Source: Nitrospirales bacterium (lineage in GTDB: Bacteria; Nitrospirota; Nitrospiria; Nitrospirales; UBA8639). Taken from it: DNA of 64,000 nt. The notes beneath the pieces are model-generated. The model ran no database searches. It worked only from the letters and a program-made list of their open reading frames with translations, and had not been told where the DNA came from. The translations under genes and the position numbers were made by a program. The DNA is taken from the NCBI GenBank assembly GCA_965223675.1, contig OZ245013.1, positions 1,569,169 through 1,633,168 of the forward strand. Direction: 5' to 3'. Positions 28,389-64,000 of the stretch are shown here, in pieces (the first letter of the stretch is position 1; each line of letters opens with the position of its first letter).

Positions 28389-28389
28389 C

Positions 28390-38121: not shown

Positions 38122-38655
38122 CTACCCACGCGATGGCAGGCGCGGAACAATTTCAAATTCCAAGAGGTCTGCGACTTCGACTATATCAACTCGTTCTCGC
38201 GCCGCAATGACCCTTTGCAGCCAATTCACCATTGAATCAGGCGGGGGTTGAGAGGTTCCAACTGTCCTGGCGAGTTCAGCCCATTCGACATAATCAGCCA
38301 GCCTCCCAAACCAATCGTCGAGTTGACGCAGACGTTTTTCTCCACGACGAAAGGCACGAGCCAAATTTTCTGCGTCTTCCTTAAGCGCTGCACCAAATTC
38401 TTGAGCACTCGGTGCCCCACTTTCGACGATCGACTGAAGCGGTCGACTGGTTGCGACTACATTGCCCATTTGACCAGCTTCCTGGGAAAGAATTGAAGGC
38501 ACGAGATCACGATCCGTAAAACATCGCTGGCCTACCTTCAAGTTGGTGACTAAACAGCCTCTTGCATGAGCCGTATCACTCAAGCGCGCAATCACTTCTT
38601 CGAGTTTCACGGTGTCCTCCATCTCCCAAGTCTCTTCATCGAGTTGAACTTGCAT
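38122..38655 (-). CDS. hypothetical protein (177 aa) between the GT9-like gene and fliC
   Basis: ATG preceded by AGGAGG at 7 nt. It overlaps the stop of the upstream gene by 20 nt. No recognisable motif. Confidence 0.65.
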   Translation of the reverse strand: MQVQLDEETWEMEDTVKLEEVIARLSDTAHARGCLVTNLKVGQRCFTDRDLVPSILSQEAGQMGNVVATSRPLQSIVESGAPSAQEFGAALKEDAENLARAFRRGEKRLRQLDDWFGRLADYVEWAELARTVGTSQPPPDSMVNWLQRVIAARERVDIVEVADLLEFEIVPRLPSRG

Positions 38656-40294
38656 ATTCGACCCTCCTTGTTGGTATATGATCGATTTTCAAATTCCGCA
38701 CCACATTCAATGCGCGACGTTTCCACATTGCGTATGCTTTCGCATGCTCACAGGCCATACCATAAAGATCGGATTGACTCAGGTTGTACGTATCTCGAAA
38801 ACAAGCAGAGGTAATCGGACTAAAAGCTGGCGACATACGTCCCAGTACTCTTGCCTCATGAGCTTTTTGATTTAAACGCTCATGGCAAGCTTTTATCCGG
38901 TGGACTGACAAGGAAGCCTGGGAGGTTAAGTCAACGAACTCGTTTACTGTATCACACAGAAACGTTAACAGAGGATCAAGTTTTGCGAACGTTTCTATCA
39001 CGTGATCCAGATCTGGAGGTTTTCCGTGTGGTCCTGACATGCGACTGATCTGCCCAGTACAGTCTTCATACCAAAACTTCCTCCAGAATTCTCCGTACCA
39101 TTGCTGAAGTGGGTCTTCTACTCCTACACGAAGGCGAAACGTCCCAAGCTGGTCTTCATCAACTCCCGCCTCATACACACGCGTTCCTATCGAAAAACCT
39201 GGCAACTCACCTTTCCCCAAGACATGCAGACACACATCTGCCACTAAGTGTGGCAGGAGTCGTTCCTTGCAGCTCTGGTGAGAACACACTTGGTCAAATC
39301 CACATGGTCCACATTCAATGTCTGGCTGGATGCACCAATGGTTTTTTCCGTAGGGACCTGTCTCTCGAAAATCAACGTGACCGACAGATACATTGACAAC
39401 CGGCAGGTTTACGCCAACGGCCAAGTGCATAGGCCCCGTATCATTCGTGAGCATTAACTGACATTGAGACAACAGTCCTAACAGCTGCTCGAGGTTTGTT
39501 TTTCCAATGGCATTACAAAGCGGACCAACCCCATCAGCATGTTTATAGCTCTGCACCGCTTCCTGTACTGCCTGTTGTTCCTTTTTTGTCCCAATCAACA
39601 CAAATCCAACGTTAAGCCGTTGACTAAGCAAGGCCATCGTCTGACCAAAATAGGTTGGGCGCCATGCTTTCATCACATCACTTGCCCCGACTTGCACCGC
39701 TAACCACGCGGAGGTCTCGCCAGACGACGCGAGTAAATTTCTTGCCCATTCCAGATCGATCGTATGTTGTTTTAACTCAATCGGTGCAAATGGACCCAGA
39801 CGACTCCCTCCCAAAGCATAGACATCAGCAAGATTAAAGCGGTTAAACTTTCGATAGGTATGCATATCGAGAAAATACGTCATCCAGGGGTTTTTGACGA
39901 TGACACTTCCATCCGGCGCGGTCGTGAGTCCTCGGATATCATGAGCTCCCACGTAACCCGTCAAATAGGCACTTCGTCGATTAAACGTGAGATTGATCAC
40001 CCGATCGTATCCATTCTCAACAAGAGGTTTCGCCCACTTTGCAAGATCCTGATACAACGCAACGACGTCTCTAGCCCGCACTCGTGTTTCATCCATGAGT
40101 AGTTGAAAGTCATGAGCCAGAACATGACGAATTCCAGGAAGAAGTTTCGCTATCTCAGAAAATTCCTTATCGACAATCAGGTCGATCTCCACACCTGGCC
40201 ATTCGTATTCCAATCGCTTCAACAATGGCGTCATCTGAACTAAATCACCCATGCGAGTGATATTTAATATGAGGACTTGTTTACTCATTAACAC
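38636..40294 (-). CDS. GT9-like glycosyltransferase with a ~200-aa C-terminal extension
   Basis: VLILNITRMGDLVQMTPLL N-terminus, TNDTGPMHLAVG and a CGPCGFDQVCSHQSC cluster (GT9 hallmarks), followed by a helical extension with no recognisable motif. Confidence 0.8.
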   Translation of the reverse strand: MLMSKQVLILNITRMGDLVQMTPLLKRLEYEWPGVEIDLIVDKEFSEIAKLLPGIRHVLAHDFQLLMDETRVRARDVVALYQDLAKWAKPLVENGYDRVINLTFNRRSAYLTGYVGAHDIRGLTTAPDGSVIVKNPWMTYFLDMHTYRKFNRFNLADVYALGGSRLGPFAPIELKQHTIDLEWARNLLASSGETSAWLAVQVGASDVMKAWRPTYFGQTMALLSQRLNVGFVLIGTKKEQQAVQEAVQSYKHADGVGPLCNAIGKTNLEQLLGLLSQCQLMLTNDTGPMHLAVGVNLPVVNVSVGHVDFRETGPYGKNHWCIQPDIECGPCGFDQVCSHQSCKERLLPHLVADVCLHVLGKGELPGFSIGTRVYEAGVDEDQLGTFRLRVGVEDPLQQWYGEFWRKFWYEDCTGQISRMSGPHGKPPDLDHVIETFAKLDPLLTFLCDTVNEFVDLTSQASLSVHRIKACHERLNQKAHEARVLGRMSPAFSPITSACFRDTYNLSQSDLYGMACEHAKAYAMWKRRALNVVRNLKIDHIPTRRVEYASSTR

Positions 40295-40444
40295 ACCCGA
40301 AAATCGGTAGACGGAAAACGAGAAACGATATAAGAAAATATTGAACGCTTTGGTAGATTGAAATATTTATTTGAGGTGGTCGATTCCTCAAACACGAAGT
40401 TGAGTCTTGAATCAATTCCTCGTCTAGCGTCTTACGTTTCACGA

Positions 40445-42265
40445 TCACACAAAATCCCTAGTTTCTTGCCGATATTCATCCATCATCAAGATAAGCAACT
40501 CATTCCGGCTTAAGACAGCTGTAGGACCCTTAGCCCGAATCTTGGCAGCCACATCTTCCAATTCCACTCGTTCAGTATCTCGGAACGGCTGCAAGAGAGG
40601 TAACAACTCAGGTGATTCCTGACTTTTTTTGACTAACGAAGATGCATTACGTTCACCGCGCAACACAGCACCAACTCGATCTGGCTGATGAAGTCCTATC
40701 TCACTCAATAAGGTCTTCATACGATGAACATAGGTATGATGACGTAATACGTGTTGTCTTGAGGCCTCAGCCATATCATGACGTGCGTCTGAATCTTTCA
40801 CGTACCGATCGACCGTCGAAGTCAGATCTTCGGGGCTATTGATCACACCCATCATTGACTGATCGAAATGCTCGAAGAGAAGCTCTCTCGTATCTGAGAT
40901 TTGAAAAGCTCCGCATGCCGCCAGTTCGAACATTCTTGGATTAAGACTATCACCATGAGGATCAAACCCTTCACCGGTATACGAATGAAGATTGATATTC
41001 ACTTTGGTGCAATTAAAGATCTTGACACTGGTTTCTGCATCAATCCTAGCGCCCTTTCGCTGCAAAACTTGTCCCAACGGACCGGGATCTTCCCATTCAT
41101 TTCCCCAAAGCTTGAATGACCAACTATGATTCAGGAGCGATTGAAGTAAAAGCCGGCGATTGGGATATCCTGCACCGAGGAAAGAAACATCGGCACCGAA
41201 TTCTTGCTGTTCTTCAAACGTACAATTCAGGGGTCGATGAATCTCTGGGTTCGCCGCTAACGGCAAATAGCTTACATGCTTGGCTCCTGCATGGGATAAT
41301 GCATCGATGCAAGCTCGTTGCTGCATGACAAACCAAAAGTCGTATCCCGTTGCCACCTGCTGCCAGTAGGTGAGATGTCTGAAATTTTCCACAAACCACA
41401 TGGCTGTCAGCACTTTCTTTTTGCGTAGTTGTTCCAATACGGGCATGGCTAAAGGCGCCTGTGCCATCGCCAGCACAAGATCAGGTGGATCGTCTGCGAT
41501 ATGTGCAAGGCTGACGATCCCAAGTGTTTCGCCAAAACGGCTCTGCATCGTCAGTCGTAACTGGGGATCACGAAGATTTTCCAAACTTTTATATCCTGGA
41601 TGATGGATGGAATGATCAATCCAACTGACTCGATGCCCAAGATGCTCCAAGGCTGGAACAACGTGGAGTGCTACCGATAAAGAGCCTCCATAGATTGGTC
41701 CCACCACTGCAACATGGAGACGCCCCCCTTGCTTTTGAGACACTCGCTCACGTAGACAGTCTTGAAATTCTCTGATGTACTGTTCGTGAATAGCGGCCGA
41801 GGGGTCGTGGCGAATCATATGAATCCGGGAAGATGACTGGCTGACATAATCGGCGACTTCTTTGCATTCTCCCCAGAGCCATTGAATATGTTCGCCCCAT
41901 CCATCAAGAACCCTCACTGAAAGTGCATCAACTAATTCTCGTAAATCTGGGACTAACACCAAGATTGATTGCGTATCTGGAATCTTCTTTTTCAACGCTT
42001 CAATATGATAGAGGAGTCCTACTCCAATAATCAGAATCGCTTCTCCTGCCTGAGGCTCGTGCATCTCCCTTTCTGCCCAGGTATACGCCTCTTTCATAGG
42101 ATCATAGGCACTATGAAGCCATTGCTCTTGAACACGTGCAGTCGGCATTCCATTCTTTGCATCGAGAATCGTGAAGGCTCCACCCTCTTCATCAAAAAGC
42201 TTTTCCGCAAGACCGGGATTTTGAAGACGAATAACGCGAAGATTTTCCTGAAGTATGCTCATCAA
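40445..42265 (-). CDS. Maf-N-terminal-like / CgeB-like glycosyltransferase family protein (606 aa)
   Basis: The N-terminus (LQENLRVIRLQNPGLAEKL...LHSAYDPMKEA...ILIIGVGLLYHIE) resembles motility-accessory-factor N-termini. The C-terminal half (NPRMFELAACGAFQISD...) resembles the CgeB/Glyco_trans_1_2 family. Confidence 0.65.
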   Translation of the reverse strand: MMSILQENLRVIRLQNPGLAEKLFDEEGGAFTILDAKNGMPTARVQEQWLHSAYDPMKEAYTWAEREMHEPQAGEAILIIGVGLLYHIEALKKKIPDTQSILVLVPDLRELVDALSVRVLDGWGEHIQWLWGECKEVADYVSQSSSRIHMIRHDPSAAIHEQYIREFQDCLRERVSQKQGGRLHVAVVGPIYGGSLSVALHVVPALEHLGHRVSWIDHSIHHPGYKSLENLRDPQLRLTMQSRFGETLGIVSLAHIADDPPDLVLAMAQAPLAMPVLEQLRKKKVLTAMWFVENFRHLTYWQQVATGYDFWFVMQQRACIDALSHAGAKHVSYLPLAANPEIHRPLNCTFEEQQEFGADVSFLGAGYPNRRLLLQSLLNHSWSFKLWGNEWEDPGPLGQVLQRKGARIDAETSVKIFNCTKVNINLHSYTGEGFDPHGDSLNPRMFELAACGAFQISDTRELLFEHFDQSMMGVINSPEDLTSTVDRYVKDSDARHDMAEASRQHVLRHHTYVHRMKTLLSEIGLHQPDRVGAVLRGERNASSLVKKSQESPELLPLLQPFRDTERVELEDVAAKIRAKGPTAVLSRNELLILMMDEYRQETRDFV

Positions 42266-42278: not shown

Positions 42279-43370
42279 TCATACACCTAACTCATGATGG
42301 ATCTGATGACTGAGTTCACGAAATTTCCTCCCAACTGCATTGTATTTGCTAGACAAGGAAGCATTCTTGAGAGAACGATGAGCACTGTTCTCATAGCGGG
42401 AGGCAACATATTCATAGACTGGTGCCAGCAGGAAAAGAATTTCTCCTTGCCGATCACTACGTTGGCGAAGAACACTTTGTGAATCAATGGTTTTTAGCGT
42501 ATCGAGAATACTCTGTGCACGATGAACTCCAGTGTGTTTCTTCTCCACCTCCAAACGTCCGCGAGAAGCGATCTCTTCCCGCTCCTCATGATGTGCATCA
42601 TAATATTGTGCGATGTGAAGGACTTCTTCGATATTCCCTTTCGCATACATTACACAATGGGTCTTGTCCTGAAATAGATCCTCTAATCCGTTCCCAACCC
42701 GCTCCATCAACAACATGCCTCCGCAAGCCATGGCTTCAAACGTACGAAAATTCACATCATTGTCTGCACATTGATTCAGTATCATTTTGGATTGCATGAA
42801 CACGGAGAGATAGTCACCGGTTCCAACATAGAGAGGATAAGCCTCTTGTAGAGTTTTTAGAAATGCATACCGCACCGGATTGAGAGTCGGGTTGATGCTG
42901 CCTACAAAACTCAAATCATACGTTCTAGAATGACAATCATCTAAGGATGGAATAGTCGGAGGAAATAAGGGAAGCCACTGTGCAATCTGCCTGGACTGAT
43001 CACGTACATAACCCGAGACAAAATCTCGTTGTGCGACAAATATCACATCGAATATTGCAGCATAGGCTTGATGCCATCGATGATGAATATGCGAATCGAT
43101 CGCATACCAACCAACAGGAATATGTAGTCGCTCCAACCCTAAAAATAGAGGATGAGTACTTTCATCGGTCAACAACACAAAATCAGGATTCCATCCTGTG
43201 GGTAAGTGCTGCCATAGTCGATCAATCGAAATGGGATATTCAGGCATTTTGATATCACCGGTATTATCTGTTGGACAGGTCAAAACATCATGACCTAATT
43301 CCTGAAACCCCGGTTTCAACGCTGGTAACCCAAGGAGTAAAATCTTCATCAACTTCTCATTCTCAAACAC
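42279..43370 (-). CDS. CgeB-like glycosyltransferase family protein (paralog A)
   Basis: FRTFEAMACGGMLLMERV...EEREEIASRGRLEVEKKHTGVHRA, a CgeB/Glyco_trans_1_2-type C-terminus. It aligns along its full length with the next gene. Confidence 0.7.
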   Translation of the reverse strand: MFENEKLMKILLLGLPALKPGFQELGHDVLTCPTDNTGDIKMPEYPISIDRLWQHLPTGWNPDFVLLTDESTHPLFLGLERLHIPVGWYAIDSHIHHRWHQAYAAIFDVIFVAQRDFVSGYVRDQSRQIAQWLPLFPPTIPSLDDCHSRTYDLSFVGSINPTLNPVRYAFLKTLQEAYPLYVGTGDYLSVFMQSKMILNQCADNDVNFRTFEAMACGGMLLMERVGNGLEDLFQDKTHCVMYAKGNIEEVLHIAQYYDAHHEEREEIASRGRLEVEKKHTGVHRAQSILDTLKTIDSQSVLRQRSDRQGEILFLLAPVYEYVASRYENSAHRSLKNASLSSKYNAVGRKFRELSHQIHHELGV

Positions 43371-44443
43371 GGCGCTTCGCCTAAGTTATGAAGAACCTTC
43401 GATCGAGCCTCCTGGAATGCCGCTGACGTACGCACACATTCGTGAAACTGTGAAGGCAAATCCTTATAACGACGACTTGTTACCTCATACACACTGGCAG
43501 CATGCTCGTAGACACGATCTAACTGACGATTGATTTCAATTAGCTTGGATTGTCTACTCTTGACCAACACGTGAGCGTTCGCAGCCCGAACGATATCGAC
43601 GATTGTCCGAACTCGATGCATAGTCGTGTGACATGTGAGAACTCGCTCTCTTCCTTCATGAGCGATCTCTTCACGCTCCTGCTCATGCCTAATATAGTGC
43701 AGAGCTAATTCAACGATCTGATCGATATTGTCTCTTTCATACATCACGAGGTGCGTACGATCCTGGAACAGATCCTCGAAGCCATTTCCTACTCTTTCTG
43801 TCAGCAAAAGACTCCCACAGGCGAGCGCTTCAAACACTCGAAAATTCACGTCATTGGCGGCACATTCATTGAAGACCACCCGTGAGCGATTAAACACGCT
43901 CACATATTCGCCAGTCGTCGTATACATCGGAATTCGTTCCATCACTGCATTGAGTAAGCGACTCCGCTTAGGTTTCCATCTTTCATCAATAACGCCGACA
44001 AAACTCAGATCATATATTTTCGGTAATGGAAAATAGCGATCTCGCTCAGGATTACAAAAGAGCGGCAACCATCTCACAACCTGCCGAGAAGAGTCTTGTT
44101 CATAATCAGGGAGATAATCTCTTTGAGCGACAAACACAAAATCGAACACGGATGTGTAGGATTTATGCCAATCCAAATGGAGATGGGCATCGATGGTGTA
44201 CCATGCCAGCGGGACATCGAGACGCTCTAATCCCAAAAACATGGGTTCCGTACTCTCATCCATCAACATAACAAGATCGGGATTCCAATCACTCGGCAAC
44301 GCTTGAAGAACTTTATTGATAGAGACAGGAAATTCATCGATCCAAATATCTCCACTTTGATCGGTCGTACACGTCAATACGTCATGTCCACATTGGAGAA
44401 AAGCTCCCTTCAGTACAGGAAACCCTAATAAAAGTACGTTCAT
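43349..44443 (-). CDS. CgeB-like glycosyltransferase family protein (paralog B)
   Basis: Collinear with 42279-43370 (for example GHDVLTC.TD..GDI, WNPD, DES..P.FLGLERL, VFVAQRD, WLPLF, FRVFEALACGSLLL). Confidence 0.7.
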   Translation of the reverse strand: MNVLLLGFPVLKGAFLQCGHDVLTCTTDQSGDIWIDEFPVSINKVLQALPSDWNPDLVMLMDESTEPMFLGLERLDVPLAWYTIDAHLHLDWHKSYTSVFDFVFVAQRDYLPDYEQDSSRQVVRWLPLFCNPERDRYFPLPKIYDLSFVGVIDERWKPKRSRLLNAVMERIPMYTTTGEYVSVFNRSRVVFNECAANDVNFRVFEALACGSLLLTERVGNGFEDLFQDRTHLVMYERDNIDQIVELALHYIRHEQEREEIAHEGRERVLTCHTTMHRVRTIVDIVRAANAHVLVKSRQSKLIEINRQLDRVYEHAASVYEVTSRRYKDLPSQFHECVRTSAAFQEARSKVLHNLGEAPCLRMRS

Positions 44444-52465: not shown

Positions 52466-52572
52466 TGATAGCCTCCTTCACGCCAACAATTCTGTCTATG
52501 CATATGTCTATGCTGCAGTCACGGTTCGTTATGAACCCATTTGAAAATGAGGTGACAGACGCAGACCTGTGC

Positions 52573-56310: not shown

Positions 56311-56317
56311 AATCGCT

Positions 56318-57223: not shown

Positions 57224-57427
57224 AATGTCTTTCTAGGAAGAAAGCAATCTTTTCACATAGTCACAGAAATCAATTATCAGGACTCTGAACACTTACCTTA
57301 TCCAACTGAATCTTCGAACATACGTTTAGCATCTTCATTCTGGAGAAAATATGCGACTGAGTCAGAAGTCTTTGTCATCATTGCCTGAGTCTCATCAGCC
57401 AGTGAGTAGCTTCATCCACTATTACGC

Positions 57428-58453
57428 TCACGCCGCGTGTTGGTATTCTAAAGAAGAGTTAGATATCACCTGCCAGTTCTTGTCGATCCAGCTTGCAGTT
57501 TGTCGTAAGCCTTCATCAAGCGAAATTTGCGTGGACCATCCAAGCTCAGACCGACTTCGACTTGAGTCGATTTTATACGCCGCGTCCTGTCCTAGTCGTT
57601 CTTCAACGGTAACGGTTGACTCCGAAAAGTCTCTTCCGAACAAGAGACACAGTTGTTTCACGACATCTCTTACGGCAATTCCACGTTCTGGAGAGAAATG
57701 ATAAATCTTTCCAGAACTCCCGTGCTCCATAGCCAACAACTCACCTCTCGAGACATCACGAATGTGAATATAGGACTTCACGGCTTTCCCGCCGCCATGT
57801 AGATGAATCTTCTGTCTTGTTTTTAGTGAAATAATCGTTCGAGGAATAATCTTGAAAAGCTGTTGATGCGGACCATACACATTGGTTGCCCGAATCATCA
57901 CCAGTGGGAAATTGTAGTTTTTGACTAATGTAAAGAGATAAAGATCGGCTGCCGCTTTAGAGGCGGCATAGGGAGTACTAGGATTCAGTGGAGCCGACTC
58001 GGTCACACGGCCTTCACACGTTCCGTATACTTCTGGAGACGAGATGTGGACATATCGCTTGAGATATTCTCGTTCTTTGAGGGCATTCGTGAGTTTTGCC
58101 AGTGCCACAGCATTGGTTTGAAACCAATGCTCTGGATGCTGCCAACTTGGTGCGACTTCACTTTGCGCAGCAAAATTGACGATGTAGTCTGGTTTGACTG
58201 AATCCAAGAGTCGAATGATTCGATCACCATCAATATTGAGATCCATTTGATAAAAGGTAAATTTTGATCGGTCATGCCGCTTATACGGAAGAAAGGTCCC
58301 ATTTTTCTCTGCCGACCGACTCACGCCAACGACCGTATTGCGAGGGTCTTCCAAGAGTAGATCGATAAAATCACTTCCTGAAAAAGAATTACTTCCAATG
58401 ACGACAATCTTTCGTAACGTATTCGAACTAGTGATTAGTCCTCCGATATTCAT
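57428..58453 (-). CDS. NDP-hexose 4,6-dehydratase (RmlB-like extended SDR)
   Basis: VVIGSNSFSGSDF, NFAAQSEV, SSPEVYG and YAASKAAADL (YxxxK) motifs. Confidence 0.8.
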   Translation of the reverse strand: MNIGGLITSSNTLRKIVVIGSNSFSGSDFIDLLLEDPRNTVVGVSRSAEKNGTFLPYKRHDRSKFTFYQMDLNIDGDRIIRLLDSVKPDYIVNFAAQSEVAPSWQHPEHWFQTNAVALAKLTNALKEREYLKRYVHISSPEVYGTCEGRVTESAPLNPSTPYAASKAAADLYLFTLVKNYNFPLVMIRATNVYGPHQQLFKIIPRTIISLKTRQKIHLHGGGKAVKSYIHIRDVSRGELLAMEHGSSGKIYHFSPERGIAVRDVVKQLCLLFGRDFSESTVTVEERLGQDAAYKIDSSRSRSELGWSTQISLDEGLRQTASWIDKNWQVISNSSLEYQHAA

Positions 58454-58464
58454 GAAGTTCCTTT

Positions 58465-59523
58465 CTAAAATGGACCGACAAAGCTTCGATCTGGAACATC
58501 GAGCGGGTGAGAAGAGTGCTCCAAATCGATTTCTGTTATCTCTTTTTTATTCATTAAAGACCGGACGACATTCATGATTTGGATTGCGCGTGGGTAATAA
58601 TGCTCCGTTAACGCATGAGAAGTCGGCGTAGGACAATCCGGCAACCCGATTCGCTTCGGAGAACATTTAAGCTCGAAAAATGCATGTTCCACGACCAGAG
58701 AAACAATCTCTGCCGAGACACCAAACGAGGTCCACCCAGTATCCGCCACCACGAGACGTCCGGTCTTACAGACTGATTTCACGATGAGCGAGTCATCTAA
58801 AGGACGCAGACTCCGAACATCCACAACTTCAGCCCCAATCCCATCTTCTGCCAGCATGTTTGCCGCTCTCATGGCTTCGAGTGTCATATAAGAAGTCGCC
58901 ACGATCGTCACATCAGAACCTTGTCTGAGCACTCGACTCGTCCCTAAAGGAACTCGATAGAGACCGTCTGGCACATGATCAATCGTGTCATGCAGCCAGC
59001 GATGTTCGAGAAACACCACAGGGTTAGGATCTTCGATACTCGCGATCAGTAATCCCTTAGCATCATAGGCCGTTGTCGGCATGACTACCTTGAGCCCTGG
59101 AATATGCGAAAACCAGGCTTGTAAGCTTTGGGAATGTTGAGGGCCCTGTCCCCACCCCCTTCCGATCATTAATCGGATAACTAAGGGAACACTGTGCTGG
59201 CCACCGAACATGTACTGCCAATTCGCCGCTTGATTCACCATTTGTTCTACAGCTAATAAAGCAAAATCCATACGTTGGTGAGTCATAACGGGCTTCATGC
59301 CCATTAACGCGGAACCAATAGCCACGCCGGTCATTGCATTTTCCGAGGTGGGCATATCCATAACTCGATTTTCACCATAATCTTCTTCTAACCCTCGCGT
59401 ACTCCCGAATATCCCTTTGGGATCCGGAACGCCCAACCCCATCACATACACAGCGGGGTCTTTTTCCAGGCAAAGATCCAAAGCTTCTCTGATGGCTTCA
59501 ACGTATGTTCGTTGTCGAGTCAT
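58465..59523 (-). CDS. TPP-dependent 2-oxoacid dehydrogenase E1 component, beta subunit-like
   Basis: MTRQRTYVEAIREAL...DVMGLGVPDP...MPTSENAMTGVAIG, typical of an E1-beta/transketolase pyrimidine-binding domain. The ATG at 59523 overlaps the alpha stop (ATGA). The track ORF start at 59667 is an artefact. Confidence 0.85.
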   Translation of the reverse strand: MTRQRTYVEAIREALDLCLEKDPAVYVMGLGVPDPKGIFGSTRGLEEDYGENRVMDMPTSENAMTGVAIGSALMGMKPVMTHQRMDFALLAVEQMVNQAANWQYMFGGQHSVPLVIRLMIGRGWGQGPQHSQSLQAWFSHIPGLKVVMPTTAYDAKGLLIASIEDPNPVVFLEHRWLHDTIDHVPDGLYRVPLGTSRVLRQGSDVTIVATSYMTLEAMRAANMLAEDGIGAEVVDVRSLRPLDDSLIVKSVCKTGRLVVADTGWTSFGVSAEIVSLVVEHAFFELKCSPKRIGLPDCPTPTSHALTEHYYPRAIQIMNVVRSLMNKKEITEIDLEHSSHPLDVPDRSFVGPF

Positions 59524-60557
59524 GCGGCTTTTTCTCTGGATGGTACGGAATGCACAGCATACACATGTTGAAATAACTGCTCCTTCGGTGGAAACTGACT
59601 TTTTTGGGCGTATCGTACGGCGGCCTCTATCTCCGACGAGAGACGTTCCACATGACCACGTTCCCAAGACGCATCAAACCCGCCTCGCTGAGACAAAACA
59701 TGTTTTGTCTTTTCGATTGGGCACCTTGTGTGCCATTCTTCAAACTCCGACAGCGTTCGATATCCTAAGTGATGATCAAAGTTTGGCCCGCAATGTTCTC
59801 GCCATCGATAGGTTTCAAATTCGAGAAATGTTGGGCCACCACTGTTCCGTGCTTTGTGTACCGCCTGTGAAGCTGATTCATAGACGGCACGCACATCATT
59901 GCCATCTAGTCGCTTACCCTCACATCCATGCGCTTCCGCAATGAGCATGACATCACGCGTATGAGGTTGCCGAACTGATAAAGGGGAATACACCGAATAC
60001 AAATTGTTTTCACAGACGAATATGATTGGCAGGTTTTTCAGCACGGCAAAGTTCACACTTTCGTGAAATGTCCCTTCTTCGGTAGCTCCTTCTCCAAAGT
60101 ACACGACGGTGACGATAGGCTGTCCTTTCAACAGAGCACCAAATGCCGCGCCGACAGCAATTGGAATTGAACTCGCGACGATTGGGGTCGCGCCTAAAAA
60201 TCCAGCGGACAGGTCAACCAAGTGCATCGACCCACCTTTTCCCTTGGCGCATCCGCTTTCCTTTCCATAAATCTCAGCGAGCATCCGACTGAGATCTCCC
60301 CCTTTGGCTAAATAATGTCCGTGAGAGCGATGACCGCTCAAGACCACATCATTTTTCCTTAATGTTGCGCTGACTCCAACCGGAATCGCTTCTTGCCCAA
60401 TACACAAATGTACCGGGCAACGCATCTCCTTGTCGGTATACAGGTCAGCAATTCGCTCTTCGACCATCCTGATTCGAAGCATTTCAAGATAAAGATATCG
60501 CAGCAGATCAGAAGAAAGAGATCGATCGATGCGTGTCATGTGATCAGTAGTTTTCAT
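59520..60557 (-). CDS. TPP-dependent 2-oxoacid dehydrogenase E1 component, alpha subunit-like
   Basis: The TPP-binding motif region (YFGEGATEEGTFHESVNFA...PIIFVCENNLY) matches the GDG-X-N pattern of E1-alpha. Confidence 0.85.
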   Translation of the reverse strand: MKTTDHMTRIDRSLSSDLLRYLYLEMLRIRMVEERIADLYTDKEMRCPVHLCIGQEAIPVGVSATLRKNDVVLSGHRSHGHYLAKGGDLSRMLAEIYGKESGCAKGKGGSMHLVDLSAGFLGATPIVASSIPIAVGAAFGALLKGQPIVTVVYFGEGATEEGTFHESVNFAVLKNLPIIFVCENNLYSVYSPLSVRQPHTRDVMLIAEAHGCEGKRLDGNDVRAVYESASQAVHKARNSGGPTFLEFETYRWREHCGPNFDHHLGYRTLSEFEEWHTRCPIEKTKHVLSQRGGFDASWERGHVERLSSEIEAAVRYAQKSQFPPKEQLFQHVYAVHSVPSREKAA

Positions 60558-60594
60558 CGTCTTCTACACAGAACGTAGGGCTTCAATTTCTTGC

Positions 60595-61599
60595 TTAAAT
60601 CAGTTCGACTTCTTTCATACGCTTGATATTGAAATACCGACTGTCATCGAAGGAATTTGGAATTTTCCCTTCTTGAAAAGCCGTGATGAGATCCCCAATA
60701 GCATCTCGAACCGAATGGTTAGGAGTGAACCCTAATACGCGGGCAATCTTTTCTGACGAGATATGATAGGAACGATGATCATCGGTCTCCGTATGGATAA
60801 TCTCGACATCCTGCCCAACTTTACTCTGAACCATTTCTGCAATGTCTGACACGCGATGATTATGATATCCGGCATTAAAAATTTCCCCATTTATTTTTTC
60901 AGACGGCCAATTTAAGCATTGCGTATAGACTTCCACCATGTCCTGAATATGGATGTTTGGCCGTTTCTGCTGCCCGCCAAACACAGTAATCCTTCGATTA
61001 TTGACTGCATGATTCGTCAAAATATTCACCGTCAGATCCAACCTCAGTCGCGGAGAATAGCCGCAGACCGTGGCAGGGCGAATGACCACCACTTCAAATC
61101 CCGCACGTTGTTTTTTCAATAAGATCTCCTCACAGAGCGCTTTGTACTTGGAATAATCCGTCAAAGGGGTCAGTGGAAGATCTTCTGTTACATTTTCCTC
61201 TTTCTTCACACCGTACACAGAAGATGACGAAGCATAGATAAAACGTTTCACGCCAAGCTCGCAAGCTCGGTCTACTAAACCGGAAAAAGCATCATAGTTG
61301 ATCGAACGACCCAAAGATGGGTTCAGTTCAAAACTTGGATCGTTTGAAATGCAAGCTAAATGTATCATGACATCGCATCCGGGAATTATCTGCTCTACTA
61401 GTCTATGGTCCCTAATGTCTCCGCGAACTTCCTCGAGATTATGATGCCCTCGTACCGATTCAAGGACTGACTCTCCATAGAGATAGAGATCCAGAACCTT
61501 CACTCGATAGCCTTCGTCCAGTAATCGAGGCACTAACGCTGAGCCAACATATCCAGCTCCTCCAGTTACCAACACCGTCTTGCAACCTTGAGCACTCAT
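60595..61599 (-). CDS. NAD-dependent nucleotide-sugar epimerase/dehydratase (extended SDR)
   Basis: VLVTGGAGYVGS Rossmann motif and YSKYK (YxxxK). Confidence 0.8.
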   Translation of the reverse strand: MSAQGCKTVLVTGGAGYVGSALVPRLLDEGYRVKVLDLYLYGESVLESVRGHHNLEEVRGDIRDHRLVEQIIPGCDVMIHLACISNDPSFELNPSLGRSINYDAFSGLVDRACELGVKRFIYASSSSVYGVKKEENVTEDLPLTPLTDYSKYKALCEEILLKKQRAGFEVVVIRPATVCGYSPRLRLDLTVNILTNHAVNNRRITVFGGQQKRPNIHIQDMVEVYTQCLNWPSEKINGEIFNAGYHNHRVSDIAEMVQSKVGQDVEIIHTETDDHRSYHISSEKIARVLGFTPNHSVRDAIGDLITAFQEGKIPNSFDDSRYFNIKRMKEVELI

Positions 61600-61703
61600 G
61601 AAGTCCTATCTCCTCGTGACATACTGTGAAAAGTTAAAAGTAAGAAGATTGAAGTAGGTCACAACATTCTCCTCAATACATTTCACTTGTTACTCCTTAC
61701 CGT

Positions 61704-63239
61704 TCACTTCAACAGTGATTCAACACTTCGTTGCAGTTGAACTCGATCAAGAGAAGCACGATTTCCCACAGTCATCACAGCTTGAGCCCCTGCTAAATTT
61801 CCGATTAATCCAACGACATCTGAAGGAACCCCCATCGCCACACACGGAGCAGTTAAGGCAAACAACGCATCTCCTGCTCCAATTCGATCAACAACTTTGA
61901 CCGCTAAAGAGGGAGTTTCAAAGAACCCATCATGCTGGTGATAAAGCAACGTTCCCTTATTCCCCTGGGTAACCATGACGGACGGACATCTCAAATCCTT
62001 CGACAGACTTTTTACGATAGACTTCAAGTTTCCACGAGCATCTCGCCGATCCACCCGTATCTCTTTTTCTTGTATGGAGATGTAGTCAGCCTTCCTATAT
62101 TTTGAGATTGTGTGAAACCCCATATTCGCAGCATTAATTTGAGTATTCACCGCTAAAAACGGGGCATGTTCCCCCACAAGATGAATTGCGGCTGGCGACA
62201 GTAACCCATGCCCGAAGTCTGCTACAATCGCCAGATCGCAATGTGCGAGTTTTTCCTTCAGCGTGTCACGCAGTTCCATATCTTCTCGATCGGTAAGAAC
62301 CGTATCGTTCATCTCATACACTTCCAAGAGTTTGGAAAATTGATATTGCTCAATGAATCGACGTTTAACGATGGTGGGAGAGCCAGACTTAAAGATAAAG
62401 GTCGGTTCGATATTGGTTTTTAGATTTTCTCGGATGAATCGTTCGTGCGGGTGCATCGTCCCCAAGTACGACACGAGCTCCACGCGATCACAGAAGCTTG
62501 CAAGATGGTTCGCAACCGCCAAACTACCACCTAACTGTTTTTCTTTTGAGGCATACTGCATAGCGAGGATAGGTTCTTTAGAGGATTTCCCTAACGCATG
62601 GCAATACACGTATTCATCGATGATCGCTTCTCCAATCACCAACACTCTGAGAGAACGCATGCGCTCAAGGTATTCAATAATGTTTTCTGCTCTATACTGT
62701 TCTCGAAATTTTGTCAGCCACCCATTCAAGTCTGGCGGAAACAAGGGAACATAACGGTTCAATAAACTCGTGGAGCTAAACTGCACGTCATTGGTGATTT
62801 CAAGACGTCCGCCAACGGATTGTACGGCAGCCTGCTCCCGTGCAAGTCCACCGGTTAAATCGGGGCGATCCTGGCTATAGTCCGGCCCTTTCACGTAGAC
62901 ATCTGGTTTTAAGGCTTTGATCGCATTCTCGGCTGTCTCCCAGCGATTAATGGCGACGTAGTCCACCGCATCCAAGGCCGCAATACCTTCAACTCTCAAA
63001 TCTTGCTGAAATGCAGGTCGATGAGGACCTTTATTCACATAACGATCGGGCGTAACCGTCACGACCAGCACATCTCCCAGCGCTTTGGCTTCTTCCAAAT
63101 GACGAATATGACCGACATGAAGTAAATCAAAGACTCCATGACAGTGCACAATGGTCTTTCCCCGACAACGAGCGTCTTGAAGAAGCAATTCTAACTCTTC
63201 AAGGGATTGTGCTTTTCTCAGGACGGCTACACTTGCCAT
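61704..63239 (-). CDS. bifunctional cytidylyltransferase-fold nucleotidyltransferase / PfkB-family sugar kinase (domain order reversed relative to HldE)
   Basis: N-terminal HCHGVFDLLHVGHIRHLEEA (HxGH nucleotidyltransferase motif). The C-terminal ribokinase-like domain ends with VVDRIGAGDALFA (PfkB GAGD motif). Confidence 0.8.
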   Translation of the reverse strand: MASVAVLRKAQSLEELELLLQDARCRGKTIVHCHGVFDLLHVGHIRHLEEAKALGDVLVVTVTPDRYVNKGPHRPAFQQDLRVEGIAALDAVDYVAINRWETAENAIKALKPDVYVKGPDYSQDRPDLTGGLAREQAAVQSVGGRLEITNDVQFSSTSLLNRYVPLFPPDLNGWLTKFREQYRAENIIEYLERMRSLRVLVIGEAIIDEYVYCHALGKSSKEPILAMQYASKEKQLGGSLAVANHLASFCDRVELVSYLGTMHPHERFIRENLKTNIEPTFIFKSGSPTIVKRRFIEQYQFSKLLEVYEMNDTVLTDREDMELRDTLKEKLAHCDLAIVADFGHGLLSPAAIHLVGEHAPFLAVNTQINAANMGFHTISKYRKADYISIQEKEIRVDRRDARGNLKSIVKSLSKDLRCPSVMVTQGNKGTLLYHQHDGFFETPSLAVKVVDRIGAGDALFALTAPCVAMGVPSDVVGLIGNLAGAQAVMTVGNRASLDRVQLQRSVESLLK

Positions 63240-63241
63240 AT

Positions 63242-64000
63242 TTAGGCCTCACACGCCACAGGTTCATCAGAGCCTCGACCCAAATACCGAAACCAATCCG
63301 CAGAAGCTGTCGCAATGGAAACAGGATCCCACACTGGGGCCCCTTCCCAAGCACTGATTTGTTCAAGCATCACATTCACACCATCTTCCAAGGAGATCGT
63401 CGGCATCCACCCAAGAATATTTTGCGCCTTCTTAGTATCTGCGAATGTACAATCGGGCTCTCCCGGACGTTTGGGAATGTAGACGGCTGTTCCACCAAGA
63501 AGTTCCACGAGTTGATTGATACTATAGGTTCCTCCCGAACCTATATTAAACATTTCTTGTGAACAGTCAGATTCGGCTGCCTTCACAAAGGCTTCGACCA
63601 CATCCGTCACAAAGGTGAAGTCGCGAGTTTGCGTACCATCTCCGACAACCGTCAATGGTTTCTGTTGGAGTTTCTGAGCAAGAAATACCCCGAAGACGGC
63701 GCCATAAGTACCTGAGGTTCGCGCACGTGGCCCATAGACATTAAAGAGGCGAAGGGACACCACCGGCAAACGATAGGTCCGCGCCCAATGCATCACCAGT
63801 TGTTCGCCTAGATACTTGGTTAGGGCATAGGGGTATTGGGGTTGAATGGCCGCTGTTTCCGGAGTCGGATAGATATCTGGGATTCCATAACATGACGATG
63901 AAGCGGTATAGATAAATCGTTTGATTCCTGCTTTTCTTGCACCTTCGACCAGCGTGGCGGTCCCCGAAACATTTGCCCGATAATACGCTAAGGGATTGAC
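63242..64000 (-). CDS. NAD-dependent nucleotide-sugar epimerase/dehydratase, C-terminal part (5' end outside the window)
   Basis: The frame stays open to nt 64000. YPYALTKYLGEQL (YxxxK), then FNVYGPR and GDGTQTRDFTFV motifs of the GalE/UXS-like extended SDRs. Confidence 0.8.
   Translation of the reverse strand, partial: VNPLAYYRANVSGTATLVEGARKAGIKRFIYTASSSCYGIPDIYPTPETAAIQPQYPYALTKYLGEQLVMHWARTYRLPVVSLRLFNVYGPRARTSGTYGAVFGVFLAQKLQQKPLTVVGDGTQTRDFTFVTDVVEAFVKAAESDCSQEMFNIGSGGTYSINQLVELLGGTAVYIPKRPGEPDCTFADTKKAQNILGWMPTISLEDGVNVMLEQISAWEGAPVWDPVSIATASADWFRYLGRGSDEPVACEA

What the first reader, a model, noticed from the sequence alone, without database searches (positions are those of the whole stretch)
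38122..64000. About 26 kb co-directional glycan island feeding into fliC: candidate undescribed flagellin glycosylation system
Twenty-one consecutive minus-strand ORFs, with short gaps or overlapping stop/start codons, run directly into fliC-flaG-fliD-fliS.

Transferases in the island:
- Two GT9-like proteins.
- One Maf-N/CgeB-like protein.
- Two CgeB-like proteins.
- One triple-GT2-TPR protein.
- One solo GT2.

It also carries its own nucleotide-sugar pathway and four methyltransferases.

In the visible part I found no Wzx/Wzy/Wzz, no ABC exporter and no polyprenyl-phosphate initiating transferase (WecA/WbaP type). This argues against an O-antigen or capsule locus and for cytoplasmic protein glycosylation.

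I also found no NeuB-like synthase, PseB/PseC-type aminotransferase or CMP-nonulosonate synthetase. It therefore does not match the Pse/Leg-Maf, Pseudomonas Fgt or GmaR O-GlcNAc systems.

The window ends inside the island, so its upstream boundary is unknown.
Basis: partly seen in the sequence, partly recalled or inferred. Interest (0 to 1): 0.85.

Follow-up and report, generated by a model that had tools for sequence, protein, structure and literature searches.

The report
Nitrospirales flagellin glycosylation island, new enzymes
Next to its flagellin gene, this Nitrospirales bacterium carries a large cluster of soluble sugar-making and sugar-transferring enzymes that most likely decorates the flagellar filament, and at its heart is a conserved enzyme pair that no flagellar glycosylation study found here describes.

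Summary
Twenty-one co-directional minus-strand ORFs (38122-64000, the last cut by the window end) lie upstream of fliC-flaG-fliD-fliS. They encode only soluble glycosyltransferases, methyltransferases and nucleotide-sugar enzymes.

Evidence for a flagellin glycosylation island, all from genomic context:
- Five other Nitrospirales genomes share one core next to a 275-aa fliC: a large TPR multi-transferase, a short GT9, a 605-aa transferase, a 550-aa GT9 and a 177-aa orphan.
- In three relatives, fliW-csrA bound the island upstream.
- Canonical LPS heptosyltransferases sit in a separate lipid A/core locus in the same window.

New findings:
- The 605-aa protein has a Maf-type N-terminal domain fused to a CgeB-like GT-B domain.
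- This protein and a long GT9 form a conserved gene pair in 42 of 48 diverse metagenomic loci.
- Eleven of those loci carry flagellar filament genes.
- Two sampled representatives are natural Maf-N/GT9 fusions.

The sugar cassette (HldE-like enzyme, SDRs, E1 alpha/beta) is not flagellum-specific. It occurs in many phyla, once beside an ABC-2 exporter.

No mass spectrometry exists, and the acceptor and the sugars are inferred. Verdict: a new variant of a known kind, of moderately high interest.

The parts
63242..64000 (-). SDR epimerase/dehydratase, truncated by the window end. First visible gene of the island.
   Evidence: Pfam Epimerase and GDP_Man_Dehyd. The reading frame continues to nt 64000. 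Orthologues of about 354 aa follow a SIS (GmhA-like) gene in relatives.
61704..63239 (-). HldE-like bifunctional enzyme with swapped domain order: N-terminal nucleotidyltransferase, C-terminal PfkB sugar kinase.
   Evidence: PF01467 + PF00294. NCBIfam HldE, rfaE_dom_I and rfaE_dom_II, all below cut-off. PDB: heptose 7-phosphate kinase 4E84 (2e-15) and nucleotidyltransferase 5X9Q (4.5e-17).
60595..61599 (-). SDR epimerase/reductase (334 aa).
   Evidence: Pfam Epimerase, 6.6e-39. Travels with the HldE-like gene in 69 of 80 loci.
59520..60557 (-). PDH-E1 alpha-like ThDP enzyme subunit.
   Evidence: PF00676, 6.7e-60.
58465..59523 (-). PDH-E1 beta-like subunit. The likely start is M49 of the listed ORF, overlapping the E1 alpha stop codon.
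   Evidence: Transket_pyr + Transketolase_C. Start inferred.
57428..58453 (-). NDP-sugar 4,6-dehydratase-like SDR (341 aa).
   Evidence: TIGR01181, 206 bits, below cut-off. PF16363.
56318..57223 (-). Solo GT2 glycosyltransferase.
   Evidence: PF00535, 3.7e-32.
55624..56310 (-). Class I SAM methyltransferase (228 aa).
   Evidence: Methyltransf_25 and Methyltransf_11.
54851..55642 (-). Short SDR (263 aa), RmlD/epimerase-like N-terminus.
53802..54854 (-). Radical-SAM/SPASM enzyme.
   Evidence: PF04055 + PF13186. Its SPASM region is weakly similar to BtrN.
52573..53823 (-). UDP-galactopyranose-mutase-like flavoenzyme.
   Evidence: PF03275. PDB UGM 3HDQ, 1.3e-24.
51806..52465 (-). Class I SAM methyltransferase (219 aa).
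50682..51791 (-). Zn-dependent alcohol dehydrogenase-like reductase.
   Evidence: ADH_N + ADH_zinc_N.
47026..50619 (-). 1197-aa soluble protein with three GT2 domains plus a C-terminal TPR region.
   Evidence: PF00535 in three stretches, TPR_19 and related families. No TM segment. Every relative carries a differently composed large TPR multi-transferase at this position.
45975..47015 (-). TylF-like sugar O-methyltransferase.
   Evidence: PF05711, 5.9e-23.
44440..45801 (-). Short divergent GT9 (453 aa).
   Evidence: PF01075, 1.5e-12. Conserved position in relatives, 341-436 aa. Homologues in 40 of 48 distant loci.
43349..44443 (-). CgeB-like Glyco_trans_1_2 protein (364 aa).
42279..43370 (-). 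CgeB-like Glyco_trans_1_2 protein (363 aa).
40445..42265 (-). Core enzyme 1 (605/606 aa). Domains: Maf-type N-terminal domain (1-180), GT-B/GT4-like DUF3880 + Glyco_trans_1_2 catalytic domain, C-terminal helical region.
   Evidence: Pfam. AF2 model, pLDDT 83. Foldseek hits GT4 enzymes. PF20157 in 18 of 50 orthologues. N-terminus matches Maf-type proteins. Identity of 52% or more across 120 Nitrospirales clusters.
38636..40294 (-). Core enzyme 2: long GT9 (550/552 aa). GT9 catalytic domain plus a beta-hairpin and a roughly 140-aa four-helix C-terminal domain.
   Evidence: PF01075. AF2 pLDDT 90. Foldseek best hits 3TOV, WaaF and WaaC; TibC weaker. Invariant D17, K209 and D285-T-G..H290. Adjacent to core enzyme 1 in 42 of 48 distant loci.
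38122..38655 (-). 177-aa acidic orphan protein. Its start overlaps the GT9 stop by 20 nt.
   Evidence: No Pfam, NCBIfam or PDB assignment. Found only in Nitrospirales, always between the long GT9 and fliC.
37991..38016 (-). Sigma-28-type promoter candidate for fliC: TCAAG-N15-CCGATA.
   Evidence: Read. Both boxes are invariant in four genomes.
37874..37915 (-). fliC leader: 10-bp hairpin with a CGGA loop (37892-37915) plus AAGGAGGA at the ribosome-binding site (37874-37881). Candidate CsrA-binding sites.
   Evidence: conserved, with changes on both sides of the stem in L004; fold, z = -2.5.
37042..37869 (-). fliC: a 275-aa flagellin with D0/D1 only. Ser/Thr make up 18 of 50 residues at 151-200.
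   Evidence: Flagellin_N + Flagellin_C. Composition. 69-99% identical across six genomes.
34647..36965 (-). flaG (36579-36965), fliD (35066-36463) and fliS (34647-35039).

Best explanation
This is a flagellin glycosylation island of a Nitrospirales bacterium, inserted between the late flagellar regulators fliW-csrA (beyond the window end) and fliC.

Conserved core. Soluble cytoplasmic enzymes build an O-linked glycan on the short (275-aa) flagellin before it is exported through the flagellar type III system. The invariant, flagellin-proximal core has four parts:
- A 605-aa enzyme that combines a Maf-type N-terminal domain and a helical C-terminal region with a GT-B (CgeB-like) catalytic domain.
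- A 550-aa GT9 enzyme with intact ADP-heptose-type motifs and an extra C-terminal helical bundle.
- A second, shorter GT9.
- A large TPR multi-glycosyltransferase.

Proposed division of labour. I infer that the Maf-N enzyme and/or the long GT9 recognise flagellin and start the glycan. The GT9 enzymes would add heptose from ADP-heptose, which this lineage also makes for LPS.

Variable distal part. This part comprises an HldE-like kinase/nucleotidyltransferase, SDRs, a 4,6-dehydratase-like enzyme, PDH-E1 alpha/beta, a Zn-ADH, a UGM-like mutase, a radical-SAM enzyme, three methyltransferases, GT2 enzymes and small CgeB-like transferases. I infer that it supplies and attaches strain-specific sugars that are deoxygenated, C2-branched and methylated.

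Shown versus inferred. Shown: gene content, synteny, domain architectures, conserved catalytic motifs and absence of export genes in the sequenced parts. Inferred: the acceptor (flagellin), the order of steps, the donor sugars and the role of the 177-aa orphan.
For: 1. Synteny. Five other Nitrospirales genomes share the order large TPR multi-GT, short GT9, 0-2 CgeB-like genes, 605-aa enzyme, 550-558-aa GT9, 176-182-aa orphan, fliC(275 aa)-flaG-fliD-fliS.

2. Upstream boundary. fliW-csrA bound the island in L004, L005 and L006. Nitrospira sp. Ecomares 2.1 has a minimal island of about 10 kb with only transferases between csrA and fliC.

3. Variable distal content against a conserved flagellin (69-99% identical) and a conserved core.

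4. No exporter, polymerase or initiating transferase and no multi-pass membrane protein in the window, or in the 10 kb upstream in L005 and L009.

5. Canonical LPS GT9 enzymes (356 and 361 aa, 151 and 114 bits) with GmhB-like, WaaA, LpxK, MsbA and LpxB genes form a separate locus at 8-25 kb. The island GT9 enzymes are only 22-26% identical to them.

6. Maf link.
- PF20157 is hit in 18 of 50 orthologues.
- A profile of the N-terminal domain finds 2903 representative proteins.
- Of 40 sampled, 28 have a Maf-type catalytic domain. The reference among them, P0289, hits PDB 5MU5 at 7e-8.
- Nine have the CgeB-type domain and two are Maf-N/GT9 fusions.

7. Gene pair beyond Nitrospirales.
- In 48 metagenomic loci (GC 0.29-0.66), 42 have a long-GT9 homologue next to the Maf-N/CgeB-like gene.
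- Eleven of these loci carry fliC, flaG, fliD, fliS, fliW or csrA; among loci of at least 12 kb it is 7 of 16.
- The comparison set is 0 of 75 non-Nitrospirales loci fetched around the sugar cassette.

8. The GT9 catalytic and donor motifs are invariant, and the GT9 fold is modelled with pLDDT 90.
Against: - No experimental evidence shows that any Nitrospirales flagellin is glycosylated. No relevant paper was found.
- The true upstream end in this genome is unseen. The source contig could not be retrieved.
- About 17 kb in the middle of the closest long relative's island (NPIRA02) was not inspected.
- The characterised GT9 acceptors I know of are LPS cores and, for the BAHT family, autotransporters (PMC4358343).
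- The sugar cassette is found in many phyla away from flagellar genes and, in L044, directly after an ABC-2 permease/ATPase pair.
- fliC has its own promoter, so co-transcription with the island is not implied.
- Only 11 of the 48 distant loci show flagellar genes. The rest are mostly short contigs, but 9 of the 16 loci of at least 12 kb show none.
Confidence: 0.75

Rival explanations
1. The cluster makes a lipid-linked surface polysaccharide (LPS outer core, O-antigen or capsule). Its initiating transferase, flippase or ABC exporter and its ligase are encoded elsewhere, and it lies next to the flagellar genes by accident.
For: - The characterised GT9 acceptors I know of are LPS cores.
- A lipid A/core locus lies only about 13 kb beyond fliS in the same window.
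- The same nucleotide-sugar cassette follows an ABC-2 permease + ATPase in a Pyrinomonadaceae locus and occurs in many phyla without flagellar genes.
- The window ends inside the island.
Against: - The position between csrA and fliC is conserved across Nitrospirales.
- The complete minimal island in L004 has no exporter.
- There are no membrane proteins in 26 kb.
- Canonical LPS GT9 enzymes are already present in the LPS locus.
- One core enzyme carries a Maf-type N-terminal domain.
- The core gene pair is enriched next to fliC, fliD and fliS in unrelated lineages.
Confidence: 0.1
2. The island is a cytoplasmic protein-glycosylation system whose main target is not FliC. The target could be another flagellar protein such as FliD or FlaG, or a wider set of secreted proteins.
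For: - Nothing in the sequence identifies the acceptor.
- The neighbouring genes include fliD and flaG, and a conserved CsgG-like lipoprotein and a PilZ protein lie downstream.
- GT9-fold BAHT enzymes glycosylate non-flagellar proteins (PMC4358343).
Against: - From my own knowledge, every characterised Maf-domain system acts on flagellin; PMC11339370 describes Maf enzymes as flagellin O-glycosyltransferases.
- The core sits immediately upstream of fliC in all six genomes.
- The flagellin has a Ser/Thr-rich central segment.
Confidence: 0.1
3. The long GT9 is a member of the autotransporter heptosyltransferase (BAHT, TibC/AAH) family that has been redirected to flagellin.
For: - It has a GT9 fold, soluble character and a Cys-x2-Cys...Cys...Cys motif at about the position of the TibC iron finger.
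- TibC appears among the Foldseek hits.
Against: - TibC is not found by sequence or by profile even at E<=10.
- Foldseek ranks it 41st, with TM 0.49 against 0.65-0.80 for 3TOV, WaaF and WaaC.
- The model starts directly with the Rossmann strand, so the BAHT N-terminal beta-barrel is absent.
- The Cys motif is also present in the window's canonical LPS GT9 enzymes.
- No autotransporter gene is nearby.
Confidence: 0.03

Closest known systems
Maf (motility-associated factor) flagellin nonulosonic-acid transferases (Campylobacter, Helicobacter, Aeromonas, Clostridium botulinum, Magnetospirillum; PDB 5MU5)
   Same: - The 605-aa core enzyme shares the Maf N-terminal domain: PF20157 in orthologues, and BLASTP 36% over 131 aa (E=1.7e-20) to a Maf-type protein.
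- It has the same three-part layout: Rossmann-like N-domain, catalytic domain, helical C-terminal region (PMC11339370).
- It has the same position next to flagellin.
   Different: - The catalytic MAF_flag10 domain is replaced by a GT-B DUF3880/Glyco_trans_1_2 domain.
- The window has no NeuB/PseI, PseC-type aminotransferase or CMP-nonulosonate synthetase.
- The N-terminal profile does not hit 5MU5 directly.
LPS heptosyltransferases WaaC/WaaF and GT9 structure 3TOV
   Same: - They are the best structural and sequence matches of the long GT9.
- The G-D, K and D-T-G-x2-H motifs are conserved.
   Different: - The long GT9 has about 200 extra C-terminal residues (a beta-hairpin plus a four-helix bundle).
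- It is only about 25% identical to the canonical GT9 pair in the LPS locus of the same window.
- It is always next to fliC and the Maf-N enzyme.
Bacterial autotransporter heptosyltransferases (TibC, AAH)
   Same: They set the precedent that a soluble GT9-fold enzyme can O-heptosylate a protein in the cytoplasm using the LPS precursor ADP-heptose (PMC4358343).
   Different: - No detectable sequence relationship.
- A weaker structural match.
- No N-terminal beta-barrel.
- A different genomic partner.
TPR-containing flagellin glycosyltransferases (FlmG of Caulobacter; from my own knowledge also GmaR of Listeria and Pseudomonas Fgt enzymes)
   Same: The 1197-aa protein joins TPR repeats to glycosyltransferase domains. 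In FlmG the TPR domain binds flagellin (PMC7591256).
   Different: - Three GT2 (GT-A) domains with the TPR at the C-terminus.
- The composition differs in every relative, so it is more likely an elongating enzyme than the conserved initiator.
Flagellin glycosylation islands of Pseudomonas, Geobacillus, Enterobacteriaceae and Clostridium
   Same: A variable block of transferase and sugar-pathway genes inserted among late flagellar genes (PMC5109656, PMC4875605).
   Different: - Those two papers mention no GT9, heptose or CgeB genes, and the Enterobacteriaceae one no transketolase or pyruvate-dehydrogenase genes either.
- The size is at least 26 kb here, and about 50 kb from fliW to fliC in NPIRA02.
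PDH-E1 alpha/beta-like two-carbon branching enzymes of deoxysugar pathways (Plm8/Plm9, AviB1/AviB2)
   Same: An E1 alpha/beta pair inside a nucleotide-sugar cluster together with a 4,6-dehydratase and O-methyltransferases (PMC4802897).
   Different: - The context is a protein glycan or a polysaccharide, not an antibiotic.
- The activating enzyme is HldE-like, which suggests a heptose rather than a dTDP-hexose.
- Some relatives use a split transketolase instead.

Membership tests
Flagellin glycosylation island | Located within or next to the flagellar filament gene cluster | tested here: met
   It lies immediately upstream of fliC-flaG-fliD-fliS. In relatives it lies between fliW-csrA and fliC.
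Flagellin glycosylation island | Encodes glycosyltransferases and dedicated sugar-biosynthesis enzymes, with content that varies between related strains | tested here: met
   The island is about 10 kb in L004, at least 26 kb here and about 50 kb in NPIRA02.
Flagellin glycosylation island | Flagellin carries the glycan | not testable with these tools
   Needs mass spectrometry. No report was found.
Maf glycosyltransferase family | MAF_flag10 (PF01973) catalytic domain | tested here: not met
   Pfam finds DUF3880 + Glyco_trans_1_2 instead. The fold is GT-B/GT4-like.
Maf glycosyltransferase family | Maf N-terminal domain (PF20157) | tested here: met
   - PF20157 is hit in 18 of 50 orthologues, best E=9.7e-4.
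- Distant homologue P0303 carries the PF20157 hit at E<=1e-5.
- The window protein's N-terminus matches Maf-type proteins at E down to 1.7e-20. The catalytic domain of one such protein hits 5MU5.
Maf glycosyltransferase family | Accompanied by a CMP-nonulosonic-acid pathway (NeuB/PseI, aminotransferase, CMP synthetase) | tested here: not met
   None in the window. A DegT aminotransferase does occur upstream in relative L009.
CAZy GT9 | PF01075 above the gathering score, with the catalytic Asp, phosphate-binding Lys and D-T/S-G-x2-H donor motif | tested here: met
   75.1 and 47.8 bits against a cut-off of 22. D17, K209, D285-T286-G287 and H290 are invariant in 52 sequences. Alignment to 3TOV.
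BAHT (TibC/AAH) protein heptosyltransferases | Specific sequence and structure relationship to TibC, including the N-terminal beta-barrel | tested here: not met
   Not found by profile at E<=10. Foldseek rank 41, TM 0.49. No beta-barrel in the model.
BAHT (TibC/AAH) protein heptosyltransferases | Cys4 iron finger | tested here: inconclusive
   C328, C331, C337 and C342 are invariant. The same motif is present in the window's canonical LPS GT9 enzymes. Metal binding is not testable here.
Wzx/Wzy- or ABC-dependent O-antigen or capsule locus | Flippase/polymerase or an ABC-2 exporter, plus a polyprenyl-phosphate initiating transferase | tested here: not met
   Absent from 38122-64000 and from the sequenced parts of the relatives' islands. 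DNA beyond nt 64000 of this genome was not seen.
TPR-glycosyltransferase flagellin transferases (FlmG type) | TPR domain and glycosyltransferase domain in one soluble protein | tested here: met
   Three GT2 stretches plus TPR. No TM segment.
TPR-glycosyltransferase flagellin transferases (FlmG type) | The TPR domain binds flagellin | not testable with these tools
   Needs a binding assay.

The most novel reading that the evidence does not exclude
The 605-aa Maf-N/GT-B enzyme and the 550-aa GT9 together form a widespread, uncharacterised class of flagellin glycosyltransferases. They are independent of nonulosonic acids. In this class the Maf N-terminal scaffold has been recombined with other catalytic domains (CgeB-like GT-B, or GT9 directly, as in the natural fusions P0324 and P0389). 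The long GT9 would be the first flagellin O-heptosyltransferase, unrelated to the BAHT family. In this genome the glycan would further carry a C2-branched, methylated deoxy-heptose made by a nucleotide-sugar cassette that I found uncharacterised and that is shared with polysaccharide loci in many phyla.
Probability: 0.35. Interest if true: 0.8.

Novelty: new variant of a known kind. Interest (0 to 1): 0.62.

Why it matters
Flagellin glycosylation is best understood for nonulosonic-acid/Maf systems and a few TPR-transferase systems, mostly in pathogens.

New enzymology. If confirmed, this locus adds two transferase architectures to flagellin glycosylation: Maf-N fused to a GT-B domain, and a long GT9. 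It would show that the Maf N-terminal domain is a portable module attached to at least three catalytic folds. It would also extend protein O-heptosylation beyond autotransporters.

Distribution and organism. The core pair occurs in many uncultured lineages, so the finding would not be limited to one organism. Members of Nitrospirales such as Nitrospira are, from my own knowledge, key nitrite oxidisers in wastewater, soil and marine systems. Filament glycans could affect their motility, aggregation and phage susceptibility.

Sugar cassette. The accompanying cassette (HldE-like enzyme, SDRs, and E1 or split transketolase) is widespread. I found no description of it, and it is a tractable target for glycan biochemistry.

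Tried and rejected
1. Retrieving the source contig to see beyond nt 64000 failed.
- Exact look-ups of four window proteins, including the 100%-identical P0001, returned nothing.
- The genome collection holds only relatives of 87% identity or less.
- Cluster look-up gave no accession or name.

2. The BAHT/TibC relationship of the long GT9 is rejected.

3. The 'iron-finger analogue' idea is dropped. The same Cys motif occurs in the canonical LPS GT9 enzymes.

4. Direct detection of Maf in the PDB failed.
- A profile of the 605-aa enzyme's N-terminus gave no hit.
- The whole-model Foldseek search is dominated by the GT-B domain.
- The link was established transitively instead.

5. The 177-aa orphan has no family, no PDB relative and no homologue outside Nitrospirales. 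Its function is left open.

6. Context of the two Maf-N/GT9 fusion proteins: the contigs are too short to show flagellar genes.

7. Rfam and tRNA scans found nothing in the island.

8. The sigma-70 promoter and terminator scan of 36.4-47.1 kb gave no excess over shuffles.

9. Literature searches returned nothing relevant for Nitrospira flagellin glycosylation, heptosyltransferase + flagellin, CgeB + flagellin, or DUF3880.

Full report
**Observation.** Between 38122 and 64000 there are 21 consecutive minus-strand ORFs. The last is an SDR cut by the window end. They are followed by fliC (37042-37869, 275 aa), flaG, fliD and fliS. Inside the island, neighbouring genes overlap by 4-22 nt or are separated by at most 204 nt. 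Likely true starts are a few codons inside some listed ORFs.

- Two GT9 proteins (552 and 453 aa).
- A 606-aa DUF3880 + Glyco_trans_1_2 protein.
- Two smaller Glyco_trans_1_2 proteins.
- A 1197-aa protein with three GT2 domains plus TPR.
- A solo GT2.
- A sugar-nucleotide set: an HldE-like kinase/nucleotidyltransferase with swapped domain order, five SDRs (a 4,6-dehydratase-like one among them), PDH-E1 alpha and beta, a UGM-like mutase, a Zn-ADH and a radical-SAM/SPASM enzyme.

I count three SAM methyltransferases, not four. No protein has more than one borderline hydrophobic window. No exporter, polymerase, chain-length regulator, initiating phosphotransferase or nonulosonate gene is present in the visible part.

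**Organism and the unseen end.** The proteins are 100% identical to entries from a 4.36-Mb contig held under NCBI and ENA. Their named relatives are all Nitrospirales or Nitrospira. That contig could not be fetched.

The closest available relatives are MAGs NPIRA02, OFTM51 and NPIRA01, whose HldE-like proteins are 83-87% identical. They show what lies upstream of the equivalent of nt 64000:
- A SIS (GmhA-like) gene, a GHMP kinase, an NTP-transferase, more SDRs, a C-methyltransferase and a NUDIX protein.
- In NPIRA01, also a DegT aminotransferase, a B12-radical-SAM enzyme and a split transketolase.
- In NPIRA02 and OFTM51, csrA and fliW come next.

No exporter appears in these stretches. In NPIRA02 the distance from fliW to fliC is about 50 kb on one contig, of which about 17 kb was not inspected.

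**Synteny.** Five further Nitrospirales genomes share one gene order. The long GT9 in them is 52-74% identical to the window's. The order is: a large TPR multi-transferase of variable composition; a short GT9 (341-436 aa); 0-2 small CgeB-like genes; a 605-aa enzyme; a 550-558-aa GT9; a 176-182-aa orphan; then fliC (always 275 aa), flaG, fliD and fliS.

In Nitrospira sp. Ecomares 2.1 the whole island is just these genes between csrA and fliC, with no sugar-pathway genes. Its donors must therefore come from housekeeping pools.

Flagellin is 69-99% identical among the six genomes, and Ser/Thr make up 18 of 50 residues at 151-200. The distal island content differs widely.

**Not the LPS machinery.** The same window carries a classical lipid A/core locus at about 8-25 kb. 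It holds BamA, Skp, FabZ, LpxA, LpxI, LpxB, MsbA, WaaA, LpxK, a GmhB-like HAD phosphatase, two canonical GT9 enzymes of 356 and 361 aa (151 and 114 bits), a GT2 and a GT4. The island GT9 proteins are only 22-26% identical to these. They are extra paralogues, not the core heptosyltransferases.

**The long GT9.**
- The AlphaFold model is confident (pLDDT 90).
- Residues 1-~360 form a GT9 GT-B fold. The best matches are 3TOV, WaaF and WaaC (TM 0.65-0.80 on the target).
- TibC is only rank 41 (TM 0.49) and is undetectable by sequence profile.
- The catalytic Asp (D17), K209 and the D285-T-G..H290 donor motif are invariant in 52 sequences.
- Residues ~370-534 form a beta-hairpin plus a four-helix bundle with no identifiable relatives.
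- An invariant Cys4 motif looked like the TibC iron finger (PMC4358343). It is also present in the window's LPS GT9 enzymes, so it says nothing about the acceptor.

**The 605-aa enzyme.**
- The model (pLDDT 83) shows a Rossmann-like N-domain (1-180), a GT-B/GT4-like catalytic part (PimB', MshA and BshA are the best hits) and a helical C-terminal region.
- This three-part layout matches the published description of Maf, apart from the catalytic domain (PMC11339370).
- Pfam's Maf_flag10_N is hit by 18 of 50 orthologues.
- A profile of the N-domain finds 2903 representative proteins at E<=1e-3.
- Of 40 long hits examined, 28 carry a Maf-type catalytic domain. The reference among them, P0289, matches PDB 5MU5 at 7e-8 and MptE-like kinases. 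From my own knowledge, 5MU5 is the Magnetospirillum Maf structure.
- Nine of the 40 carry the CgeB-type domain. One (P0330) shows only a partial CgeB-type match. Two (P0324 and P0389) have the Maf N-domain fused directly to a GT9 domain.
- The window protein's own N-terminus aligns to P0289 at 36% over 131 aa, E=1.7e-20.
The Maf N-domain is a module combined with three different catalytic folds.

**The pair beyond Nitrospirales.** A distant homologue (P0303, 39% identical in the GT part) carries Pfam Maf_flag10_N + Glyco_trans_1_2. It sits beside a 555-aa GT9 and a TPR protein. A metagenome scan with it returned 48 loci with GC 0.29-0.66:
- 42 have a long-GT9 homologue next to it, usually immediately downstream as in the window. 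The alignments often span the full ~550 aa.
- 40 have a second GT9.
- 11 carry fliC, flaG, fliD, fliS, fliW or csrA within the fetched flanks. Among loci of at least 12 kb it is 7 of 16.
- As an internal comparison, none of the 75 non-Nitrospirales loci of similar size fetched around the sugar cassette has such genes.

**The sugar cassette.** The block SDR, HldE-like, SDR, E1 alpha/beta (or a split transketolase), 4,6-dehydratase-like, two methyltransferases and Zn-ADH has 541 relatives across Elusimicrobiota, Chloroflexota, Planctomycetota, Acidobacteriota, Verrucomicrobiota and other phyla. Flagellar and GT9 genes are not nearby. In one Pyrinomonadaceae locus it directly follows an ABC-2 permease/ATPase pair. 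It is therefore a shared, mobile sugar module that Nitrospirales have placed in the flagellar island.

What it makes is inferred:
- The kinase and nucleotidyltransferase halves resemble heptose 7-phosphate kinase and heptose 1-phosphate nucleotidyltransferases, and a GmhA-like SIS gene precedes the block in relatives. This points to an activated heptose.
- E1 alpha/beta pairs in sugar clusters attach a pyruvate-derived two-carbon branch to 4-keto sugars (PMC4802897).
- The remaining enzymes suggest reduction, O- and C-methylation and possibly ring contraction.

**Regulation.** The 252-nt spacer before fliC holds TCAAG-N15-CCGATA. From my own knowledge this resembles the sigma-28 consensus. It also holds a 10-bp hairpin presenting GGA in its loop, and AAGGAGGA at the ribosome-binding site. 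All three are conserved in four genomes, and the stem shows changes on both sides. Together with fliW-csrA at the other end of the island, this suggests the FliW/CsrA/flagellin partner-switch control known from Bacillus and Campylobacter (my own knowledge). It also means fliC is probably transcribed on its own.

**Mechanism proposed.**
- Shown: a conserved, soluble transferase core lies next to fliC. It has intact catalytic motifs and a Maf-type domain. The donor pathways vary. Export genes are absent in the sequenced parts.
- Inferred: flagellin is glycosylated in the cytoplasm on Ser/Thr of its central segment. The Maf-N enzyme and/or the long GT9 start the glycan, and their helical C-terminal domains are candidate flagellin-binding parts. 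The GT9 enzymes add heptose from ADP-heptose. The TPR multi-GT2, the small CgeB-like proteins and the solo GT2 extend the glycan with strain-specific sugars, and the methyltransferases finish it.
- I put 0.75 on 'flagellin glycosylation island'. I put about 0.35 on the specific claim that the long GT9 is a flagellin-directed heptosyltransferase working with the Maf-N enzyme.

**Comparison and novelty.** Flagellin glycosylation islands are a known kind. This one differs in its core enzymes: a Maf N-domain on a GT-B catalytic domain, and long GT9 proteins. It also differs in lacking a nonulosonate pathway in the window and in its heptose/branched-sugar cassette. Two comparative papers on such islands mention no GT9, heptose or CgeB genes, and no paper found links DUF3880, CgeB-like or GT9 enzymes to flagellin, or treats Nitrospira flagellin glycosylation. 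It is not a member of the Maf family (catalytic domain not met) nor of the BAHT family. I rate it a new variant of a known kind, with moderately high interest because the core pair is widespread and directly testable.

Noticed in passing
window 8145-25459 (minus strand): A complete lipid A/inner-core locus. It holds BamA, Skp/OmpH, FabZ, LpxA, LpxI, a GFO/IDH/MocA oxidoreductase, LpxB, an MsbA-like ABC transporter, DUF374, WaaA, LpxK, two canonical GT9 heptosyltransferases (356 and 361 aa), a GmhB-like HAD phosphatase, a GT2 and a GT4.
   Followed up: partly
window 37874-38016 (minus strand): The fliC leader carries a sigma-28-like promoter, a GGA-loop hairpin and a GGA-containing ribosome-binding site. 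All are conserved in four Nitrospirales genomes. They suggest FliW/CsrA control of flagellin translation.
   Followed up: partly
L005-L084 (loci around HldE-like homologues); window 50682-64000: The cassette has 541 relatives in many phyla. It consists of SDR, swapped-order HldE-like, SDR, E1 alpha/beta or split transketolase, 4,6-dehydratase-like, two methyltransferases and Zn-ADH. Flagellar genes are absent nearby. In L044 it follows an ABC-2 permease and ATPase. Its sugar product appears uncharacterised.
   Followed up: partly
P0324 (776 aa) and P0389 (757 aa); loci L088, L089: Natural fusions of a Maf-type N-terminal domain to a GT9 catalytic domain. P0324 lies next to a DegT aminotransferase and a GNAT acetyltransferase. 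The contigs are too short to show flagellar genes.
   Followed up: partly
window 31460-34637 (minus strand): Downstream of fliS lie two small unassigned ORFs (105 and 113 aa), a PilZ-domain protein (202 aa) and a 596-aa CsgG-domain protein with one N-terminal hydrophobic segment. The PilZ gene follows fliS in all five relatives examined and the CsgG-domain gene in four (not L087).
   Followed up: no
window 38636-40294 and 10165-12997: The motif Cys-x2-Cys...Cys...Cys follows the donor-binding motif in the long GT9 and also in both canonical LPS GT9 enzymes. It is absent from the 453-aa GT9. It may be a general metal site of many GT9 enzymes rather than a BAHT-specific feature.
   Followed up: partly
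window 25920-31395 (plus strand): Lon protease, an AIR-synthase-related protein, DUF2062 and an HD-domain protein. In four of the five relatives examined the last three flank the flagellar block in the same order.
   Followed up: no
window 2223-2314 (plus strand): A single tRNA-Ser(GCT). No other Rfam family reaches its gathering score in the window.
   Followed up: no
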